From assembly GCA_963674755.2 (NCBI GenBank), contig CAXXVS010000002.1:96001-160000 (forward strand): a stretch of DNA of 64,000 bases. The letters are read 5' to 3'. Within the stretch, counting starts at the first letter, position 1; each line of letters begins with the position of its first letter. This document shows positions 48,138-56,731 of the stretch, piece by piece. This DNA is from Desulfobacterales bacterium (lineage in GTDB: Bacteria > Desulfobacterota > Desulfobacteria > Desulfobacterales > UBA5852). The notes beneath the pieces were generated by a model. The model was given only the letters and a program-made list of their open reading frames with translations, was not told where the DNA came from and searched no databases. The position numbers were made by a program, and so were the translations under genes.

Positions 48138-48659
48138 TCAGCTGCCCAGGTGGTCGATGAGCCTTCCGCTGGTTTGGCGCAGGTACTGGCTCATCTGCTT
48201 GGCGATCTTGAGGACCAGGGTGATGCCGATGCCCGGCAGGGCCTCATTGAGGCTTTGGAACTGCTCGGCCGTCATGACGAACAGGAGAGCGTCCGAACCG
48301 GTGACGGCCGACGCCGAACGCGGTTCCCCGTCGATGATTGACATCTCGCCGATGGTTTTACCCGGTCCCAGGGACGTGATTTTTTTGGGCGTGCGGTGGG
48401 AATCGAATTTGATCACATCCACCCGGCCCTTGACGATCAGGACCATATAGGCGTTTTTTTCGCCCTCGCAGAACAGGACGGTATCCTGGGAAACCCCGTA
48501 GACGCTCATGTAGCGGACGAGTTTTTTGATCCGCTCGAAACTGAATTCCATGGACCAGCGGGTGGCATCGAGCAGTTCGCTTTTTGCGATAATCGAAAGA
48601 TCTTGCCGCTCCAGGGCGAGCAACCCCGGTGCATTCTTCAACTCTTGGGCCGAGAGCAT
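48138..48659 (-). CDS. stand-alone cyclic-nucleotide-binding domain protein
   Basis: LFCEGE, G.V.V, GEMSIIDGEPRSAS phosphate-binding cassette; no C-terminal HTH. Confidence 0.88.
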   Translation of the reverse strand: MLSAQELKNAPGLLALERQDLSIIAKSELLDATRWSMEFSFERIKKLVRYMSVYGVSQDTVLFCEGEKNAYMVLIVKGRVDVIKFDSHRTPKKITSLGPGKTIGEMSIIDGEPRSASAVTGSDALLFVMTAEQFQSLNEALPGIGITLVLKIAKQMSQYLRQTSGRLIDHLGS

Positions 48660-48870
48660 GCTGGACCTCGCTTTTCTTGGACCGGGCCTGGGGGCGATTC
48701 TCCTCAGGACGCGCCGGTCGATCAAACAGGCCGCCTTTTGCCGCTATCGGCCATTTGCTGAAAAACCTTGAGCGCTTTGACCGGCGGTGCGGCGGGAGGG
48801 TGAAGCGGGCGCCGGGCGCGGTTTCCCCGTGGCGGCTTTCGGCGCCGGCGGCGGCATCCTGCGGATGGCC

Positions 48871-49464
48871 CTATGCTTTGGGGCGTGAAATGGATCGCAA
48901 GAAGCGATCCGTCAGGACTTGCTCCACTTCGGGCGTGATGTGCTCCGGCATTTCGGCCATGGCGTGGCGCACGGCGATGTCGATCATTTCGTCGCGCAGG
49001 TTGTGGCAGGCTTCCCGGTGGCGCGTTTCGACCAGCTGGCGGGCTTTGAGCAGGCGTCTTTCCGCTTCCTGCCGGGCCTCCGCGATAATCGTACGACGTT
49101 CTTCCTCGCCTTCGGCCACCATGCGCCGGTGCAGATCGGCGGCCCTTTGCTGGCGGTCCTCCAGCAGGGCGCGCAGGGATCGGATCTCTTCTTCGATACG
49201 GCCTTTCTGGCCTTCCAGTTTTTCCATCTTATCCTTGATCGCATCCCGCCGGGCGTTCAGGAAGTTTCCCAAGGGCTGGCGAAGCAGTTTGATGAGCACG
49301 GTCGTCAGGATAACAAAATTGACCCACATCATGACGGTGTCATAGGTTGGACGCCAGCCGCCGGCGGCCAATGCGGCCGGGGCCTGCAGCAGGTCCAACG
49401 CGGCCGCCGCCGTGGCCAGCCCCGCGGTCATGACGACCTTTTGGTTGACGGTCCGCACGGTCAA
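48871..49464 (-). CDS. atpF: ATP synthase Fo subunit b
   Basis: WVNFVIL..KLLRQPLGNFLNARRDAI TM plus coiled coil, with a hydrophobic N-terminal extension. Confidence 0.88.
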   Translation of the reverse strand: MTVRTVNQKVVMTAGLATAAAALDLLQAPAALAAGGWRPTYDTVMMWVNFVILTTVLIKLLRQPLGNFLNARRDAIKDKMEKLEGQKGRIEEEIRSLRALLEDRQQRAADLHRRMVAEGEEERRTIIAEARQEAERRLLKARQLVETRHREACHNLRDEMIDIAVRHAMAEMPEHITPEVEQVLTDRFLRSISRPKA

Positions 49465-49910
49465 GGCCTCCGATCGAGCAGGTGCTGGATGATGGCTGTG
49501 GTCAGCTGCGCCGCCTCGGCTTCGGTCTGCCGGCGCGCAACCATCAGCGAGGTCTTGAGTTGCTTTTCAGTCGCCAGATACTGATGCTTGATGTCGCTCA
49601 GGGCCTGGTCGACCAACCGGTCGGCTTCCTGCCGCCCCGTCTGCCGCAGTTCTTCGACGGTGCGGCGGGCCGTTGCCTGCAACCGTCGTTCTTCCGCCCG
49701 GGTCTCCCTGAGAAGGGTCCCCATCTCCTCCTTCAATCGAAGGATCGTCCGCCGGAGATCGGCGAAATGGTCTTCCCGCTCCGCCAGGTTGCGGCGCACC
49801 GGCCGGAACATGATCCGGTTGATCAGGAACAAAAAGACGAGAAAGATGATCATCTGAACCCAGAGGGTTTCATTGATCGTGATCAAGGCGTTGGTTTTGA
49901 TGATCTCCAT
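49461..49910 (-). CDS. ATP synthase Fo subunit b'
   Basis: INETLWVQMIIFLVFLFLINRIMFRPV...ERE, followed by coiled coil. Confidence 0.88.
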   Translation of the reverse strand: MEIIKTNALITINETLWVQMIIFLVFLFLINRIMFRPVRRNLAEREDHFADLRRTILRLKEEMGTLLRETRAEERRLQATARRTVEELRQTGRQEADRLVDQALSDIKHQYLATEKQLKTSLMVARRQTEAEAAQLTTAIIQHLLDRRP

Positions 49911-49961: not shown

Positions 49962-50210
49962 CTACACGACGAACAGGAGCAGCAGCGCGATCACCAGGGA
50001 GTAGATCCCCGTGGATTCGGCCACCGCCTGCCCGACCAGCATGGTGCGGGTCAACAGCCCGGCTTCCTTGGGATTGCGGCCGATGGCTTCGCAGGCCTTC
50101 GCCGCTGTCATGCCTTCCCCGACACCGGGACCGATGGCACCCAGCCCCATGGAAATGCCGGCCCCCAAAAGCGCCGCCGCTTTGACCAGATCTGCTCCTT
50201 CAATCGCCAT
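49962..50210 (-). CDS. atpE: ATP synthase Fo subunit c, single hairpin, Na+-type two-carboxylate motif
   Basis: GLGAIGPGVGEG, RNP loop, GQAVAESTGIY. Confidence 0.96.
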   Translation of the reverse strand: MAIEGADLVKAAALLGAGISMGLGAIGPGVGEGMTAAKACEAIGRNPKEAGLLTRTMLVGQAVAESTGIYSLVIALLLLFVV

Positions 50211-50260
50211 TGGATGTCTCCTTTGCCGGTTCGATCAGGTTTTTTGTTGAGTGCCCTCCG

Positions 50261-51244
50261 TCAGACGACAAAAATCAGGGCCAGGCTGACCACCATGGCA
50301 TAGATGGCCGTGGACTGGGATACGGCCTGCCCCACCAGCATGATGCGCATCAGATCGCCGGCATATTCGATGCGCCGCGCCACCCAGCGCACCGCCCCTT
50401 CGGCGGTGGCCCCGTTGCCAATGCCGGGACCGATGCCGCCCAGCCCCATGCACAGGCCGGCGCTGAACAGCGCGACCGAAGCACTCAGGGTCGAGGATGC
50501 CGGGAAGGTGCGGAACATCAGGATGAAACTCACTAGAAGCCCGAACACGGACGGCGTCTGGGCCACGGCCTGGCCCACCAGCATGGTCGTTGTGACGGCC
50601 GTGGCGGTTTCCGGCTGGCGGGCGATCCCTTCACAGCTGGCGCCGGCGGCCAGGCCGCCGCCATAGCCGGAGCCGATGGCGGCCAGCCCCGTGCTCAATC
50701 CGGCCCCGATCAGGGCGGCGCCGGTGGGAAAGGCCGCCACCCCGGCCGTGGGTTTGAACAGCAGGATCAGGGATACCACCATGGCAAAGATGGCCGGGGT
50801 CTGGCAGACCGCCGTGCCGATCAGCATATTGGTGGTGATGCGCCCGGAAATGGCGGGTTGGCGTGCGATGGCCAGGCAGGACCGTCCGGCCGGCACACCG
50901 GCGCCGACCCCGGAGCCGATGGCCCCGAACCCCATGCACAGCCCGGCGGCCAGGAGGGAGGCGGCTTTGACGATCCCCGGATCCGGAATGTCCATGAACA
51001 GCAGAAGGATGGCGATGACCAGAGAAAAGATCGATGCCGACTCGGAGATGGCCTGCCCCACCAGCATGTTCTTGACGATGTCGCCGGCATGCTCCCGGTC
51101 GCGGGCCATGGCCTCGGAGGCCTGGCTGGCGGTATAGCCTTCGCCGGTGGCCGCCCCGATGGCCCCGAAGCCCATGGCGACGGCCCCGCCGATGTAGGCT
51201 GCGGTCTGTGTTAAGGACAGGTTGTCGAAGGCCGGCAGGCTCAT
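50261..51244 (-). CDS. atpE: quadruplicated ATP synthase c subunit (327 aa, four helical hairpins)
   Basis: Four tandem c repeats, each with a Gly-rich inner helix and AR-x loop; outer helices GQAISESASIF, GTAVCQTPAIF, GQAVAQTPSVF, GQAVSQSTAIY. ATG 51244 overlaps the atpB stop (ATGA). Confidence 0.93.
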   Translation of the reverse strand: MSLPAFDNLSLTQTAAYIGGAVAMGFGAIGAATGEGYTASQASEAMARDREHAGDIVKNMLVGQAISESASIFSLVIAILLLFMDIPDPGIVKAASLLAAGLCMGFGAIGSGVGAGVPAGRSCLAIARQPAISGRITTNMLIGTAVCQTPAIFAMVVSLILLFKPTAGVAAFPTGAALIGAGLSTGLAAIGSGYGGGLAAGASCEGIARQPETATAVTTTMLVGQAVAQTPSVFGLLVSFILMFRTFPASSTLSASVALFSAGLCMGLGGIGPGIGNGATAEGAVRWVARRIEYAGDLMRIMLVGQAVSQSTAIYAMVVSLALIFVV

Positions 51245-51915
51245 TTCAATTGTACCGAAATATAGACTACTGTGAGCATGGTAAAAACGAAGGCCTGGAT
51301 GGTTCCCACGAAAAGCCCGAAAAAGGCGTTCAGGAACGGCGGCAACAGGATGCTGAAGCACAGGTGGGAGACCACCAGAATAATGATGGCGCCGCCCATG
51401 ATGTTGCCAAAAAGACGGAAGGAGATGGAAACGATCTTGGCCAGTTCGCCGATGACATTCAAGGGCATCAGGAAAAAAACCGGTTCGAAATAGGATTTGA
51501 TATAGAGTTTAAAGCCTTTCTCTTTGATGCCCACGTAATGGGCGATGACAAATCCCAGAATTCCCAGGCTCAGGGGTGTGTTGAGATCCCGGGAGGGTTC
51601 TTCGAGGTGGGGCAGGATCCCCAGCCAGTTGGATAGCAGAAGGAAGATGAATAAAGCGCAGATCAGGGGGGCGTAGGTCTTGGCGTGGGTTTTCCCCAGG
51701 GCCTCTTCGGTCAGGCCGTAGAACTGGGTCAGCACCGCTTCGCCGATGATCTGAAACGGTCCGGGCAGAAGGCCCTTTTTGCGGCCGGCGGCAAAGCCCA
51801 AGGATAGGGCCAAAAGGACGACGATAGCGGTCATCACCAGCACTTCCAGGTTAATGGTGACCATGTAGCCGGGCAGCGGTATGATCAGCTGATGAATTTC
51901 ACCCAATCGATCCAA
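51241..51915 (-). CDS. atpB: ATP synthase Fo subunit a
   Basis: FIFLLLSNWLG, PLNVIGELAK, SISFRLFGNI (essential Arg), IQAFVFTML; TTG start at 51915. Confidence 0.95.
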   Translation of the reverse strand: MDRLGEIHQLIIPLPGYMVTINLEVLVMTAIVVLLALSLGFAAGRKKGLLPGPFQIIGEAVLTQFYGLTEEALGKTHAKTYAPLICALFIFLLLSNWLGILPHLEEPSRDLNTPLSLGILGFVIAHYVGIKEKGFKLYIKSYFEPVFFLMPLNVIGELAKIVSISFRLFGNIMGGAIIILVVSHLCFSILLPPFLNAFFGLFVGTIQAFVFTMLTVVYISVQLK

Positions 51916-51928
51916 AGCGCGTGCCTCT

Positions 51929-52315
51929 TCAGGTGAGGGGTGACTTGGTGCCGCGTACGAGGCTGAAGACAGAATCCAGGATGATGCAGACGGGCACCAT
52001 GAATAACCCGGCCACCGTTGACGGCAGATCAACCGCGGGCCACTTCACCGCGACAACCACCGGGGCGGCCCAGAGCAGATAGCGTCCCAATTGGGCGGCC
52101 AGAGTCAGCAGGGCTCCCCGTCGGTGGTTGCCCGTCAGCTTCCGGGTCAGGCTGTGGCCCATCAGAACGAAATTGAGGCAACTGAACAGGCTGCCCAGCA
52201 AAATTCCCCGGGTCGCCGTCGGCCAGCCGGCCATGTAGACGCCCAGGCCGACCAGGATCGCGGCCGTGAGGGCGCCACCGCAATAACGCCGCTGAAAGGG
52301 TTTAATCGCTTCCAT
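51929..52315 (-). CDS. atpI: ATP synthase protein I (four TM)
   Basis: GILLGSLFSCLNF, GRYLL, four hydrophobic segments, directly upstream of atpB. Confidence 0.82.
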   Translation of the reverse strand: MEAIKPFQRRYCGGALTAAILVGLGVYMAGWPTATRGILLGSLFSCLNFVLMGHSLTRKLTGNHRRGALLTLAAQLGRYLLWAAPVVVAVKWPAVDLPSTVAGLFMVPVCIILDSVFSLVRGTKSPLT

Positions 52316-52568
52316 GGTCGGTCCCTGAATCCGAATCTGATGCGTCTGCAAAGGTTTCCATGATTTGCCGATAGGACACCACGCCCCCGCCGATGATGCC
52401 GAACAGGGTCAGCAGAACCGTCAGGATGCCGCGGCTGCCGAACCAGCGATCCAGATAGCGTCCGGCGAAAAAGCAGGCGACGATGCAGCCGGCCATGGTG
52501 AGTCCGACTTGCAGGACGATGGCGAGGTTTTCGGCCCAGGGCCGTTGTTGCTTGTAGTCCAGAACCAT
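52302..52568 (-). CDS. AtpZ/AtpQ (ATPase gene1) family protein
   Basis: VGLTMAGCI..AGRYLDRWFG..LFGIIGG two-TM pattern; first gene of the Fo operon. Confidence 0.82.
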   Translation of the reverse strand: MVLDYKQQRPWAENLAIVLQVGLTMAGCIVACFFAGRYLDRWFGSRGILTVLLTLFGIIGGGVVSYRQIMETFADASDSDSGTDHGSD

Positions 52569-52884
52569 GGCGATCGGCAGCATCAGTTAAAAGATTTGAT
52601 GGATCGCGCGTGAGGTTCAGTTTGTACGTCAGGTCCGCGGGGTCCGCAGTGAACGGGAGAAGGGGGGGAATAGGCAATGTTCATTTTTTAGATAGCTTTT
52701 CGTCATTTGTCAAATGGTCACCATTATAGTATAGAAATTTCCAGGCACACCGCAGCCTGCGACACCGCTTTGCGAAACGTGCATGCCCATTAATTCCTCT
52801 TCCCGACAGATCCCTTCCTGTTCATGGCTCCGCTGCCGATATGCACACCCCCAAACATCACAACCACTACCACAGGAGGTTGCC

Positions 52885-53505
52885 ATGGCCGTTCTCACCA
52901 TTTCGCGCATGTTTGGGACCGGGGCCGAGGCTTTGGGAGAAACCATCGCGAAACGCCTGGGCTACACTTTTTATCACAACGAACTGATTCAGCTGGTAGC
53001 CAGGAAGGCCAAAGTATCTACGGATTGGGTCAAGTCCATGGAAAAGGAGGCGGGCGGTAAATTCCAGAAGCTCATGACGTCTCTGGTTCCCAAAAGCCTG
53101 GTGGACAGGGTCCTCGATTCGGAGCGCGGCTATCTGGATGAAGAGATCTACACGGACATGCTGCAGCACATCATCACCAAGATCGCAGAGACCGGCGATG
53201 CCGTCATCCTCGGCCGCGGCGGACAGTATATCCTGAAGGACCGCGCGGATACCTACCATATTCTTCTCGTGGCGGATCTCGACCACCGGGTGAAGTATGT
53301 ACAGGCGCAGTACGACCTGATCCCCAAGCAGGCCATGCTGCTGGTGGCTATGGAAGACAAGCGGCGCGTGCAGCTCTACCGGAAATTCGGCAGGGTCGAT
53401 TATGACCAGACGGATCACTACCACGTGGTGTTCAATATGGCGCGCATGGAAATGGAAAGGGCCTGCGATATGCTCTGCACCCTGCTGGGAAGCTGCCGAT
53501 TCTGA
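52885..53505 (+). CDS. cytidylate-kinase-like family protein
   Basis: LTISRMFGTGAE, VILGRGG, D..R..Y motifs; CAGGAGG RBS. Confidence 0.88.
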   Translation: MAVLTISRMFGTGAEALGETIAKRLGYTFYHNELIQLVARKAKVSTDWVKSMEKEAGGKFQKLMTSLVPKSLVDRVLDSERGYLDEEIYTDMLQHIITKIAETGDAVILGRGGQYILKDRADTYHILLVADLDHRVKYVQAQYDLIPKQAMLLVAMEDKRRVQLYRKFGRVDYDQTDHYHVVFNMARMEMERACDMLCTLLGSCRF

Positions 53506-53572: not shown

Positions 53573-54182
53573 GACACATAAGGTGAGGTTTTGAAATCCG
53601 GCAACTGACGGCAACAGCCGTCTCATTCCCCAATGATCAGCCTGATACCATGTTTGTCAGCATATTGCCGGCGAATTTCGGAAAAACAAAAGCAAATAGC
53701 ATGCCTCCCGATTGCGTTCCCGCAAGCCCCTGACCACATTGATTCTCCTGGGATTACAGTATTTGCCGAGCGTTACGGCCCGTATTGTTTTGATAATGTG
53801 GGCCATGAAGATGTGTATTATTGTGTACGTGTGGAGCAGGGGCGCCGCCCCGGCCGGCGATCGGTCCGAACCACTGCTGTTTTACACTTGAAGGGACCGC
53901 CAGGCCCTTACGTGGCGGTTTGCCGTGCAGGCTGCATCCCTATCGGTTGCCGCATCGCGGCGTTTCAAAGAAGACCCTGGCGGATGACCTGTCACCGCTG
54001 GCCGAGCACCCGCAGCCTTTCCGGTTGCCTTTGCCGATGGCGACAGTTCCTTCAAGAGGGACCTTCGCCCATTGAAACCCATCGGAATTTTTAGTAGGCT
54101 CAAAACCGAGGTGTCGATTTCCGGGCGTACGGGTAGGGGAGGATTCCGGGAAGGGTGCCCGGGAGGAGTGGCGGTGGCTTCT

Positions 54183-55478
54183 ATGAAACAGCACTGGTTA
54201 AGATCCAATGGCCGGGCCGTGGTGGGCCTGATCGCGGTCGGCTTGTGCGTGCTGATCGGTCTGCCATCACTGTGCGCTGCCTTCCAGGGACGCCAAGCTT
54301 TCCAGAACGCCGTCATCGATTACCGCTCACGACTGAATCCCCACTATAAAAAGATCGCACGCTCTCAAACGAAGTATATCATTGTCCATACCTCCGAACT
54401 GGGATTGCAGAGCACGCTGCGGGTGGTTTCCCAGGGCAAGCGGTTTCCCAGTGGACGGCGGACCTATGGCGGCCACGCCAATTACGTCATCGCCCGCAAC
54501 GGGCGCTGCTACCGCATCCTGGACAAACACTATGTGGCCGATCACGCCGGACGGAGCATGTGGAACGGTGACACGGATATTAGCCGGCTATCCATCGGCA
54601 TCGAGCTGGTGGGATATCATTACGCCGCCATCACGGATGCGCAGTACCGATCGGTGGGCAGGCTGATCGAAATTCTCCAGGACGTTTACCATCTGGAGGA
54701 TCGGGCGGTATTGACCCACAGCCAGGTCGCCTACGGGAGGCCGAACCGCTGGTTTCATAAAGACCATCGCGGCCGCAAACGCTGTGCCAAGAATTTTATC
54801 CGCGCCAAGGCCGGATTGGGGCCCACCTGGCGCTATGATCCTGATGTGCGGGCCGGACGCCTCACCGCCGATACGCAACTGGCGGAAGTCTTCTATGGAC
54901 GGGATACGATGGATGTCCAGTTGGCGGAAGCCAATCTCATCTCCAAGCGCAATACCGCCTGGGCCATCGCGGGCGAGGATTTCGACAACGCGGCCACGGT
55001 CTATCAATTCCCGAACGGCTCTGTGTACACCGGGGATCAGATCGGAACCAAGGTGGGCTGGGACCGTATTCCCGCTCGCACCGTGGTTTTGCTCAACCAG
55101 GAAAGCGGTCTGGCACCGATTGAAGAAGAAAAGGGCCTGGTCAAAACCATTTCGGACGGTATCACCGCCTGGTCCCTGGCCGGACGGCTGTACAATCGCC
55201 ACACGACCATTTACTTTTTGCCCTCCGGTCATGTCAAAAACGGCAGCATGATCGACGACTGGGATGATCTGCCGGTGCGCACCCGGTTGATCATCGGCTA
55301 CCGGGGCCCTTACGAGCTCCGTAAAAACCGCTCCGCCTACCGCATTGCCGGCAAGGACTACAACGCCCAGGATACGATCTATTACCTCCCTTCCAACCAA
55401 CTGCTCAGCGGAAACGCCATCAAAGACTTCAGCCGGCTGCAGGCCGGCACCCTCGTTTTTCTACCCGCGCATCTATAA
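54183..55478 (+). CDS. secreted or anchored N-acetylmuramoyl-L-alanine amidase (Amidase_2) with three C-terminal repeats
   Basis: N-terminal hydrophobic helix, IIVHTS, HANYVI, ADHAG, SIGIELVG, LTH, RKRC. Confidence 0.82.
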   Translation: MKQHWLRSNGRAVVGLIAVGLCVLIGLPSLCAAFQGRQAFQNAVIDYRSRLNPHYKKIARSQTKYIIVHTSELGLQSTLRVVSQGKRFPSGRRTYGGHANYVIARNGRCYRILDKHYVADHAGRSMWNGDTDISRLSIGIELVGYHYAAITDAQYRSVGRLIEILQDVYHLEDRAVLTHSQVAYGRPNRWFHKDHRGRKRCAKNFIRAKAGLGPTWRYDPDVRAGRLTADTQLAEVFYGRDTMDVQLAEANLISKRNTAWAIAGEDFDNAATVYQFPNGSVYTGDQIGTKVGWDRIPARTVVLLNQESGLAPIEEEKGLVKTISDGITAWSLAGRLYNRHTTIYFLPSGHVKNGSMIDDWDDLPVRTRLIIGYRGPYELRKNRSAYRIAGKDYNAQDTIYYLPSNQLLSGNAIKDFSRLQAGTLVFLPAHL

Positions 55479-55616: not shown

Positions 55617-56731
55617 TTAACCCGGCAATAATAGTTACCAATTATGCTGCGTAAGCAATCTTAGGATGTTTAAAGTATTTTGCAACGCGCCTTGGCAATT
55701 TTTGTAGCATGCGAAGGTGGCTTAGCGCCTTGCTCTTTAATTGGGATTTTGACCTGGCTGGCGCACCGGAATGAACCCCGGCCTTCAAATCACAGTTCAA
55801 ATATTCATCTGGATTCAATTCGGGCGAATACGAGGGCAAAAAGAACAGTTCGATTTTGTCTTTATGCTGATCGATCCAGTCTTTGACAATATGACTATGA
55901 TGAACTCGCAGATTGTCCAAAATCAAAAATACCTTTTTGTCGGCATCTTTTATCAATCGTTTGCAAAATTTGATAAAGGTCTGCGAGTTCATTGTCTGAT
56001 TGTAGATCATGAAACGGACTTTACCCTGATTGGTAATCGAAGAGATCAGGTTGACCCTTTCCTTTTTTGCATTGAGCCGTATGGCAGGCGTTTTTCCTCT
56101 TGGCGCATAGCTTCTGCCATGCTGACTGTCGCTGCAAAGCCCGGTCTCATCCCCCCAATTGATCTCAGCGTCTTCTTTCTTGGCCCTGACTGCAATGGCG
56201 GGATACTCTTCGTCAAGCCATTTTTGAACCAATTTTGGGTTCTGTTCATAGGCTCTGCGCAAAGGCTTTTGGGGGGTAAAGCCCCAGCGGTTGAGGTACT
56301 CACCTACGGTGCGAATCGGCATATTGATGGAAAAAAGCTGCGTGATCAACTGCTGGACAGCCCGACGGGTCCAAAGGGCAAATGGGAACTTGAGTTGATC
56401 AGGGGTTTTATCGGTAATTACCTTTTTCAGCTGCTTTTCCTGCTCTGGATCAAGCGTTCGGCAACTACCGGTTTTGCGCCCCCGTTTCTTTGCCTTAATC
56501 GCATTTTGACCGCCTTTTTCGTAGGCTTTAAATATCTTGCACGCATTAGTGTAGTGAATGCCAACAACCTCACCGATCTCTTTGTAAGTTTTGCCAGCTT
56601 TGCGAAGCCTTACAACTTGTCGGCGCAGTTGCTCTTGAACCTCTGGTTTAAGCTTTCTGGTGTCTGTTGTTTCCATGCGAAGTACTATACCATACTTCGC
56701 AGTATTTTGGTATGAATAATCGCCGGGTTAA
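55617..56731 (-). mobile_element. IS630-family insertion sequence, apparently intact
   Basis: Terminal IRs TTAACCCGGC(AATAAT)/(ATAATC)GCCGGGTTAA, TA on both flanks (55615-16, 56732-33), one uninterrupted transposase ORF, lower GC. Confidence 0.93.
55642..56676 (-). CDS. IS630 transposase
   Basis: HTH region, WGFTPQKP, WGDET, ILDNL, LPSYSPELNPDE (DDE triad). Confidence 0.96.
   Translation of the reverse strand: METTDTRKLKPEVQEQLRRQVVRLRKAGKTYKEIGEVVGIHYTNACKIFKAYEKGGQNAIKAKKRGRKTGSCRTLDPEQEKQLKKVITDKTPDQLKFPFALWTRRAVQQLITQLFSINMPIRTVGEYLNRWGFTPQKPLRRAYEQNPKLVQKWLDEEYPAIAVRAKKEDAEINWGDETGLCSDSQHGRSYAPRGKTPAIRLNAKKERVNLISSITNQGKVRFMIYNQTMNSQTFIKFCKRLIKDADKKVFLILDNLRVHHSHIVKDWIDQHKDKIELFFLPSYSPELNPDEYLNCDLKAGVHSGAPARSKSQLKSKALSHLRMLQKLPRRVAKYFKHPKIAYAA

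What the first reader, a model, noticed from the sequence alone, without database searches (positions are those of the whole stretch)
50261..51244. Four-hairpin ATP synthase c subunit with only one ion-binding glutamate, encoded next to a normal c subunit
Seen: a 327-aa ORF of four fused c-subunit hairpins. Hairpin 1 keeps both acidic residues (G-E-G on the inner helix, AISES on the outer). Hairpins 2-4 have Gln at the catalytic position (VCQTP, VAQTP, VSQST). Established: Acetobacterium woodii builds a hybrid ring with a two-hairpin c1 lacking one Glu, V-type rings have one site per two hairpins, and some methanogens have multiplied c subunits. Three consecutive carboxylate-free hairpins in an F-type operon is beyond those cases as far as I know. 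Inference: a hetero-oligomeric ring with an ion-blind sector would carry three fewer ions per turn per copy, lowering the ion/ATP ratio. It might also stall ion-driven rotation, making a one-way ATP-driven pump or a brake.
Basis: partly seen in the sequence, partly recalled or inferred. Interest (0 to 1): 0.92.

Follow-up and report, generated by a model that had tools for sequence, protein, structure and literature searches.

The report
ATP synthase rotor with ion-blind sector
Many sulfate-reducing bacteria encode a second, sodium-type membrane motor for their ATP synthase whose rotor ring appears to include one fused subunit carrying a run of positions that cannot bind an ion, which would lower the ions moved per ATP and may make the enzyme a largely one-way sodium pump.

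Summary
Confirmed. The 327-aa ORF has four c hairpins with E/Q/Q/Q at the ion-binding position. It lies in a Na+-type F0 operon (atpZ-I-B-c4-c-b'-b) without F1 genes; the genome holds one F1 and a separate H+-type a/c pair. Relatives occur in 180 of 301 sampled genomes of the order, with 2-6 hairpins and up to five consecutive Q hairpins. The neighbour-side Na+ ligands (S/T-x-x-Y) are kept in 0 of 814 hairpins followed by a Q hairpin, 65 of 88 followed by an E hairpin and 269 of 269 last hairpins: the pattern expected of a subunit built into a ring beside normal c, and the same logic as Acetobacterium woodii c1. dN/dS is 0.09-0.15 per hairpin; the gene is translationally coupled to atpB. Best reading: a hybrid Na+ rotor with one blind sector and low Na+/ATP, working mainly as an ATP-driven Na+ exporter on a shared F1. 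Ring membership and direction are inferred, not shown. An extension of the A. woodii hybrid rotor; not found in ten literature searches, but the key 2015 survey could not be read.

The parts
52302..52583 (-). atpZ/atpQ-type small membrane protein (ATPase_gene1), first gene of the operon
   Evidence: PF09527 E 1.1e-14; same place in relatives
51929..52315 (-). atpI, c-ring assembly protein (start codon read from the sequence; the open frame reaches 52351)
   Evidence: PF03899 E 2.1e-8
51241..51915 (-). atpB, subunit a of the Na+-type F0, with the essential Arg motif; 32% identical to the genome's other subunit a (start at 51915 read from the sequence; the open frame reaches 52032)
   Evidence: PF00119 E 7.4e-48; tblastn; Arg column conserved in 136 of 136 rows
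50261..51244 (-). four-hairpin c subunit: H1 keeps E35/E68 but has lost T67 and Y70 equivalents; H2, H3 have Q-T-P-x-x-F; H4 has Q310 but keeps P28, S66, T67, Y70 equivalents. Start codon overlaps the atpB stop by 4 nt
50211..50260 (-). 50-nt spacer with a strong Shine-Dalgarno sequence for the single c
49962..50210 (-). single-hairpin c subunit with full Na+ motif P28, E32, E65, S66, T67, Y70 (two-carboxylate type)
   Evidence: PF00137 E 6.5e-19; motif: E65, S66, T67, Y70 in 77 of 77 rows, position 32 E in 72 and Q in 5
49461..49910 (-). b' peripheral stalk subunit
   Evidence: PF00430 E 9.4e-8, under NCBIfam cut-offs
48871..49464 (-). b peripheral stalk subunit (start uncertain); last ATP synthase gene, no delta or other F1 gene follows
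   Evidence: PF00430 E 8.7e-16; ORF list

Best explanation
The operon makes a second, Na+-coupled F0 (a, c-ring, b', b) that docks on the cell's only F1 as an alternative to the H+-coupled F0. One copy of the four-hairpin subunit is built into a ring of single c subunits in fixed orientation: its first hairpin (E35/E68) completes a Na+ site with the S/T/Y of the preceding c, its last hairpin lends S/T/Y to the next c, and the three interfaces in between bind nothing. In an 11-hairpin ring this gives 8 Na+ per 3 ATP (2.7 instead of 3.7). F1 can drive the rotor through the blind arc by hydrolysis, but Na+ flow cannot easily push it across under load, so the enzyme works mainly as a low-ratio ATP-driven Na+ exporter. 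With the H+ enzyme making ATP, the pair acts as a geared H+/Na+ exchanger that can hold the sodium-motive force above the proton-motive force, the number of blind hairpins setting the gear. Shown: sequences, motifs, gene order, single F1, selection. Inferred: ring membership (about 0.85), one copy per ring, ring size, F1 sharing, direction and purpose.
For: Ligand hand-over in 269 distinct complete proteins: S/T-x-x-Y complete in 0 of 814 hairpins before a Q hairpin, 65 of 88 before an E hairpin, 269 of 269 last hairpins; all 269 begin with an E hairpin (14 partial or misparsed rows dropped). E65 and Q/E32 come from one subunit and S66 from its neighbour (PMC2359735 and PMC3692424, passages); ProAD uses the same previous-hairpin rule (supplement). 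A. woodii c1 shows the same ends, E-T-S-G-I-F then Q-T-T-G-I-Y, at one copy per ring (PMC9171764, passage). Start within -4 to +6 nt of the atpB stop in 67 of 72 loci with SD match <= 3 nt in 69 of 72, against >= 5 nt for the single c in 70 of 72: fits about one copy per subunit a. dN/dS 0.15, 0.13, 0.09, 0.12 for H1-H4, 0.13 for subunit a, 0.04 for single c (13 independent pairs). One alpha and one beta, no V/A-type subunit I, and a separate H+-type a/c in this genome; 141 of 180 carrier genomes have one beta. In other families the same genes sit in a complete a-cN-c-b'-b-delta-alpha-gamma-beta-epsilon operon, including six-hairpin EQQQQQ forms, and 10 of 10 such genomes checked also hold a second, H+-type a/c pair. 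Toy model: five blind hairpins take 12 s to 1e7 s to cross under load.
Against: No protein-level evidence at all. A single E56Q in the PS3 c10 ring abolishes ATP-driven pumping as well as synthesis (PMC8809890, passage citing Mitome 2004). The A. woodii hybrid with one blind hairpin does synthesise ATP above 90 mV, and its authors read a low ion number as an aid to synthesis at low phosphorylation potential (PMC9171764, Discussion). For three blind hairpins the toy model spans 0.01 to 160 s, and 0.001-0.1 s if 6 kT is stored elastically, so synthesis is not excluded (diffusion constants are my assumptions). The hand-over pattern fits a homo-oligomer equally well. 23 of 88 hairpins before an E hairpin lack the triad. 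I saw no second arginine or other obvious stator adaptation among the conserved polar columns of subunit a. Rows are related, so the counts overstate independence.
Confidence: 0.5

Rival explanations
1. Same hybrid ring, but used for synthesis: a high-gear Na+ ATP synthase that makes one ATP from fewer Na+, fed by Rnf and other Na+ pumps, the blind arc being crossed with elastic and thermal energy.
For: A. woodii hybrid and the V-type-c enzyme of E. callanderi synthesise ATP at 90 mV (PMC9171764). The genome has two Rnf clusters and a membrane pyrophosphatase (their coupling ion was not tested). For three blind hairpins the threshold is 124-194 mV at N = 11 and crossing can be fast with elastic storage. 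In some families the hybrid F0 genes are the ones co-transcribed with F1.
Against: Four- and five-blind forms exist in the same operon type (59 EQQQQ, 21 EQQQQQ of 269) and are very slow in the toy model; an H+-type a/c pair was present in this genome and in 10 of 10 others checked.
Confidence: 0.25
2. The large subunit is mainly an assembly seed or curvature template, or a brake present in only some rings: it nucleates or sizes the ring, or parks F1 in a non-leaking state, while rings of single c do the work.
For: PS3 single E56Q blocks both directions. Translational coupling to atpB and low predicted expression. The number of blind hairpins changes often, at least about 20 times on a 146-row tree, which could mean loose constraint on the number. 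Recalled, not read: deleting A. woodii c1 destabilised the enzyme (Brandt et al. 2016).
Against: A seed need not keep a complete Na+ half-site at both ends in 269 of 269 proteins, nor lose ligands only where the next hairpin has lost its Glu; selection on blind hairpins is as strong as on subunit a.
Confidence: 0.15
3. The large subunit forms its own ring, for example three copies making 12 hairpins with one Na+ site per 120 degrees (1 Na+/ATP), a V-type-like extreme pump, while the single c forms a separate ring.
For: The last hairpin's S/T/Y would complete the first hairpin's site in the next copy just as well; 3 x 4 hairpins matches the three steps of F1.
Against: The family has 2, 3, 4, 5 and 6 hairpins and mixed E/Q patterns, with no common ring size; weak translation signal; the closest solved relative sits at one copy in a mixed ring.
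Confidence: 0.07
4. A decaying gene amplification without function.
For: Repeat number and E/Q pattern vary between related genomes; absent from 121 of 301 sampled genomes.
Against: dN/dS 0.09-0.15; Q encoded by both CAA and CAG and kept in 81 of 81 rows at hairpin 2; no stop inside any of the 150 listed matches.
Confidence: 0.03

Closest known systems
Acetobacterium woodii F/V-hybrid rotor, subunit c1 (PDB 4BEM chain J); also Clostridium aceticum c1
   Same: Fused c gene before a single-hairpin c in an F-type Na+ operon; first hairpin keeps Glu and loses Tyr70, last hairpin has Gln and keeps T-T-x-x-Y; best sequence and best natural structural match. One copy in nine single c, 10 Na+ sites (PMC9171764, PMC7793690, passages); C. 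aceticum has the same gene pair (PMC7911925, passages).
   Different: Four hairpins here (2-6 in the family) with up to five consecutive blind hairpins against one; blind hairpins also lose the inner-helix Q/E and gain a Pro two residues after the Gln (523 of 545 Q hairpins followed by Q); E32 rather than Q32 in the single c; here the operon has no F1 and coexists with an H+-type F0.
V/A-type c (K) subunits, e.g. Enterococcus hirae NtpK, eukaryotic c
   Same: Fused hairpins with fewer ion sites than hairpins; fold match at Z 12-14 over two hairpins.
   Different: V-type rings space sites evenly, one per two hairpins, with Glu in the second hairpin; here sites are bunched and Glu is in the first. 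No V/A-type subunit I found in the genome; F-type a, b, b' neighbours.
Methanogen multi-hairpin c subunits (M. jannaschii three, M. kandleri thirteen)
   Same: Multiplied hairpins in one chain (PMC2359735, passage).
   Different: A-type enzymes; all 13 M. kandleri hairpins keep their ligands according to that paper; no single-hairpin partner described there.
N-ATPase (alternate Na+ F-type ATPase) and Fusobacterium nucleatum c11
   Same: Two-carboxylate E32/E65 Na+ motif in the single c (PMC3692424, passages); presumed accessory Na+-export role beside an H+ synthase (PMC11738941).
   Different: N-ATPase has its own alpha, beta, gamma, epsilon, a fixed gene order and a b-delta fusion; none of this here. 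Subunit a, b and single c score far below the alternate-ATPase cut-offs.

Membership tests
F-type ATP synthase c subunit (PF00137) | Hairpin profile match over the curated cut-off, in an operon with F-type a and b | tested here: met
   4 stretches, 182.9 bits against 24; PF00119 and PF00430 neighbours
Na+-coupled F0 | Single c with [Q/E]32-E65-[S/T]-[S/T/Q]-x-x-Y | tested here: met
   E32, E65, S66, T67, Y70 in the window; 77 of 77 rows; rule from ProAD supplement
Na+-coupled F0 | Na+-dependent activity or transport | not testable with these tools
   needs biochemistry
A. woodii-type hybrid rotor c1 | Fused c gene beside a single-hairpin c in an F-type operon | tested here: met
   window; single c follows in 76 of 80 loci, the other 4 end at a contig end
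A. woodii-type hybrid rotor c1 | First hairpin keeps Glu; last hairpin has Gln but keeps the neighbour-side ligands | tested here: met
   in 79 of 269 relatives the last hairpin has Glu instead
A. woodii-type hybrid rotor c1 | Two hairpins, one blind position | tested here: not met
   four hairpins, three blind; only 2 of 269 relatives are EQ
A. woodii-type hybrid rotor c1 | Encoded in one operon with F1 | tested here: not met
   no F1 gene after atpF here and an F1 gene in only 1 of 80 loci, 59 of which hold >= 1.5 kb downstream; met in other families of the phylum
A. woodii-type hybrid rotor c1 | Present in the ring with single c at fixed copy number | not testable with these tools
   the complex predictor was not available; needs purification
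V/A-type subunit K | Cognate V/A-ATPase (subunit I) in the genome; K profile over cut-off | tested here: not met
   PF01496 not found in the 97% complete genome; K models 97.7 of 188, 80.1 of 211 bits and lower
N-ATPase | Gene order beta-epsilon-X-X-a-c-b(delta)-alpha-gamma with its own F1 | tested here: not met
N-ATPase | Alternate-ATPase profiles over cut-off | tested here: not met
   a 118 of 302, b 34 of 225, single c 66 of 131 bits; the four-hairpin protein passes TIGR03322 (151 of 131) only as a sum of four stretches

The most novel reading that the evidence does not exclude
Desulfobacterota run one F1 on two interchangeable F0 motors, and the Na+ motor's ring carries a single fused subunit whose run of one to five ion-blind hairpins is an evolvable gear and ratchet: it sets Na+/ATP between about 3.3 and 2, leaves up to half a turn unpowered, and turns an F-type synthase into a one-way high-voltage Na+ pump. 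This would be a natural F-type route to V-type behaviour, repeated many times in evolution, that contradicts the rule from engineered rings that one blind position stops the motor.
Probability: 0.4. Interest if true: 0.92.

Novelty: new variant of a known kind. Interest (0 to 1): 0.8.

Why it matters
How an F0 motor crosses positions without an ion, and how ion/ATP ratios are tuned, are open questions that so far rest on one natural hybrid ring with a single gap and on engineered rings that die with one E-to-Q. This family supplies a natural series with one to five consecutive gaps on the same scaffold, so gap length against rate, ratio and direction becomes directly measurable. It also changes the energy budget of a major group of sediment sulfate reducers: more than half of the sampled genomes of the order carry an overlooked Na+ F0 that must share F1 with the H+ F0. 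Surveys can miss it: one ring-size survey dropped c sequences over 250 aa (10.1101/2024.02.27.582367, passage).

Tried and rejected
Expression: one metatranscriptome (X1) has short contigs on the gene and on its neighbours; this does not show transcription. Forms with seven or more hairpins: the search of longer proteins found only 2 unrelated fusions, which is weak evidence; a 576-aa open frame in G553 proved to be six hairpins plus upstream frame. Promoter and terminator scan: nothing above chance (3 against 1.2 +/- 1.4; 5 against 4.7 +/- 1.8). First domain parse by HMM merged hairpins and gave false EQE and EEE patterns; redone by motif spacing. First subunit-a tree had one wrong ORF and no resolution; the second still mislabels 4 of 146 rows. 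Exclusion between this operon and a second beta gene: none seen (33 of 180 carriers against 28 of 121 non-carriers). Taxonomy of the distant multi-hairpin clusters: cluster look-ups gave almost no names. Desulfotignum, Desulfococcus biacutus, Pelobacter and Desulfobacteraceae genome or proteome papers: no mention of a multi-hairpin c in the passages found. VIA top hit 8ugc is a designed helical repeat and was set aside.

Full report
Observation. Window 50261-51244 (-) encodes 327 aa with four ATP-synt_C stretches. The residues at the E65 position are E68, Q148, Q229, Q310, and at the inner-helix position 32 E35, A115, G196, N277. AlphaFold with an 87-row alignment gives eight helices, pLDDT 95.5, with one-residue helix breaks at 148 and 229. 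The only Foldseek match at E <= 0.001 is A. woodii c1 (4bem_J, rmsd 1.4 A; Z 16.2 over 157 residues); it is also the best sequence match in the PDB (E 3.3e-24). The hairpins are 38-53% identical to each other and an independent assembly spans the locus in one piece, so this is no collapsed or duplicated assembly.

Surroundings. The gene lies in atpZ-atpI-atpB-c4-c-b'-b. No F1 gene follows. The genome (97% complete) has one alpha and one beta, in an operon b'-b-delta-alpha-gamma-beta-epsilon on another contig; the other three PF00006 matches lie outside ATP synthase operons (one is in a flagellar cluster, two are weak and were not examined). A separate atpB-atpE pair has an H+-type c (E-S-L-C-I-Y, no T67). 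No V/A-type subunit I was found. The single c in the window has P28, E32, E65, S66, T67, Y70, the two-carboxylate Na+ motif solved in Fusobacterium nucleatum (PMC3692424, abstract start and passages). So the cell encodes two F0 modules, one H+-type and one Na+-type, and one F1. It also has two Rnf clusters and a membrane pyrophosphatase.

Distribution. A scan of genome contigs found 252 related stretches; the best 80 are labelled mostly as Desulfobacterales or Deltaproteobacteria. A single c follows in 76 of 80 and atpB precedes in 76 of 80, the rest being cut by contig ends; an F1 gene lies in the held DNA of 1 of 80. In 301 genomes drawn from the order, 180 have a match at E <= 1e-30 (counted by hand from the table); 141 of these have one beta gene, 33 two or more, 6 none found. 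In 251 genomes drawn from the phylum, 27 match at E <= 1e-40. In some other families the same genes stand in a complete operon a-cN-c-b'-b-delta-alpha-gamma-beta-epsilon (4 complete of 18 loci, three more with delta or alpha where the contig ends; 6 complete with the whole cN of 10 loci), including five- and six-hairpin forms. Ten genomes from outside the order were checked for other F0 genes: all 10 hold a second a/c pair with an H+-type c, and 4 of 5 of the six-hairpin carriers also hold a second beta in N-ATPase-like gene order. These complete operons are the best evidence that this F0 works with an ordinary F1.

A series, not one oddity. Pooling 120 database hits, the query and all loci held at that point gave 269 distinct complete multi-hairpin proteins (14 partial or misparsed rows dropped): EE 1, EQ 2, EQE 5, EQQ 6, EQEE 8, EQEQ 1, EQQE 57, EQQQ 101, EQQQE 5, EQQQQ 59, EQQQQE 3, EQQQQQ 21. 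The pool is biased towards the query and towards long proteins, so these are not frequencies; among the more distant genomes of the order EQQE was 48 of 70. On a FastTree of a + c + first hairpin (146 rows, 4 mislabelled by the parser, deep branches weak) the longest Q run changes at least 22 times against 59 for shuffled labels, and several small well-supported clades mix patterns. A profile search of 50% representatives showed further multi-hairpin groups, among them many of about 320 aa with EQED or EQEE patterns; the Atlas places the nearest clusters in Thermodesulfobacteriota.

The key pattern. In Na+ rings E65 and Q/E32 come from one hairpin and S66 from the neighbour (PMC2359735, passages; PMC3692424); ProAD scores a hairpin as Na+-binding if it has Q/E...E and the previous hairpin has S/T-S/T/Q-x-x-Y (PMC11738941, supplement part 1). 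Here hairpin 1 keeps both Glu but has lost T67 and Y70; hairpin 4 has lost Glu but keeps P28, S66, T67, Y70 (81 of 81 rows each for F at 70 in hairpin 1 and S-T-x-x-Y in hairpin 4). Across the pool the triad is complete in 0 of 814 hairpins followed by a Q hairpin, 65 of 88 followed by an E hairpin and 269 of 269 last hairpins; none of 814 Q hairpins has Q or E at position 32. Ligands are kept exactly where a Glu stands next in the ring, including at both open ends of the chain, which only makes sense if the ends meet other c hairpins. A. woodii c1 has the same two ends. The rows are related, so I give no p-value weight; and the pattern does not tell a mixed ring from a homo-oligomer.

Selection and stoichiometry. 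Over 13 independent pairs dN/dS is 0.15, 0.13, 0.09, 0.12 for hairpins 1-4, 0.13 for subunit a and 0.04 for the single c. The large gene starts within -4 to +6 nt of the atpB stop in 67 of 72 loci and has an SD match of at most 3 nt in 69 of 72; the single c has a match of 5 nt or more in 70 of 72. Inference: about one large subunit per subunit a and many single c, as in the 1:9 ring of A. woodii (PMC9171764, passages and Discussion).

Mechanism. With one copy in a ring of 11 hairpins (size assumed), three blind positions give 2.67 Na+/ATP, five give 2.0. If an H+ enzyme and this Na+ enzyme share one ATP pool, equilibrium lies at a sodium-motive force 1.1-1.7 times the proton-motive force for three blind positions and ring sizes 10-12: the blind sector is what would let ATP made from protons push Na+ out against a larger gradient. 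A toy diffusion model puts the unpowered arc at 98 degrees and 11-17 kT for three blind positions (0.01-160 s; 0.001-0.1 s with 6 kT of elastic storage) and 164 degrees and 18-28 kT for five (12 s and longer; 0.7 s to an hour with storage). So synthesis is borderline here and unlikely for the longest forms, while F1-driven rotation pays no such cost. Against this, one E56Q in PS3 c10 stops pumping too (PMC8809890, passages), and the A. woodii hybrid synthesises ATP above 90 mV. The conserved Pro two residues after the Gln (523 of 545 Q hairpins followed by another Q), which coincides with the helix breaks in the model, is my candidate for the adaptation that lets the stator arginine pass; this is speculation. 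I put the pump reading at 0.5, high-gear synthesis at 0.25, seed or brake at 0.15, homo-ring at 0.07.

What is known. Ten full-text searches found no description of an F-type c subunit with more than two hairpins or of this operon. Seen as passages only: 10.64898/2026.10.01.756066 (no occurrence of 'Desulfo' or 'hybrid'; names A. woodii as the mixed ring; its supplements are closed and may bear on this), 10.1101/2024.02.27.582367, PMC11887813, PMC4103992, PMC4046663, PMC3543383, PMC7911925, PMC7793690. PMC11738941: parts 1 and 2 of 3 of the text and supplement part 1 of 2; it groups c subunits by hairpin number, so its GitHub tables, which I could not see, probably contain these proteins. Matthies 2014 and Brandt and Mueller 2015 are not held. 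From recall, the 2015 review surveyed genomes and listed about a dozen anaerobes with one F-type and one V-type c gene in an operon; it may include Desulfobacterota members and is the main risk to novelty. The library lacks most subscription journals.

Verdict. It works like the A. woodii hybrid rotor subunit c1 and shares its defining end pattern, but fails the two-hairpin, one-gap definition and, in this genome, the own-F1 definition; it is not a V/A-type K subunit and not an N-ATPase. New variant of a known kind, widespread, under selection, with a built-in natural series that makes an open mechanistic question testable. Interest 0.8; function untested.

Noticed in passing
L222, L225, L226, L228 and L279-L288 (G338, G317, G419, G477 and relatives of G338): Outside this order the hybrid Na+ F0 genes are the ones joined to the F1 operon, and the H+-type a/c pair stands apart with no b found next to it: the reverse of the window's arrangement.
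   Followed up: yes
P0198-P0273 (for example P0201, P0239): A second large group of about 320-aa four-hairpin c-like proteins with EQED, EQEE or EMED patterns and E-T-P-x-x-F motifs; nearest Atlas cluster is Thermodesulfobacteriota; gene context not examined.
   Followed up: partly
P0134, P0139, P0141, P0147, P0153: Other multi-hairpin c proteins: EQQQQ with inner-helix Gln kept (P0134), and forms with Ser, Gly, Ala or Thr at the catalytic position, some apparently with no Glu hairpin (P0153); origin unnamed.
   Followed up: no
P0146, P0149, P0226: Proteins of 968-1139 aa with many Glu-bearing hairpins (about 13 in P0146), resembling single-chain rotors of the M. kandleri kind (family recalled from PMC2359735).
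   Followed up: no
L172/L180 (G057), L174/L181 (G013), L150 (G228), L099, L102: Rearranged operons: the large c gene before atpZ or after b, b' between the two c genes, or two single c genes.
   Followed up: no
window 52885-53505 (+): Cytidylate-kinase-like gene (PF13189) divergent from the operon; a homologue lies in 41 of 80 related loci by my count, up- or downstream, some several kb away. Could be a regulator or just a large paralogous family.
   Followed up: partly
window 48138-48662 (-): Stand-alone cyclic-nucleotide-binding protein after atpF; found at this place in only 2 of 80 related loci.
   Followed up: partly
window 55642-56676 (-): 344-aa ORF in a lower-GC stretch that looks like an IS630-type transposase (from recall of the family; not scanned).
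   Followed up: no
window 54072-55478 (+): 468-aa protein with an Amidase_2 domain at 98-223 and an unexplained C-terminal half.
   Followed up: no
G056, G225: Two full-length multi-hairpin c matches in one genome.
   Followed up: no
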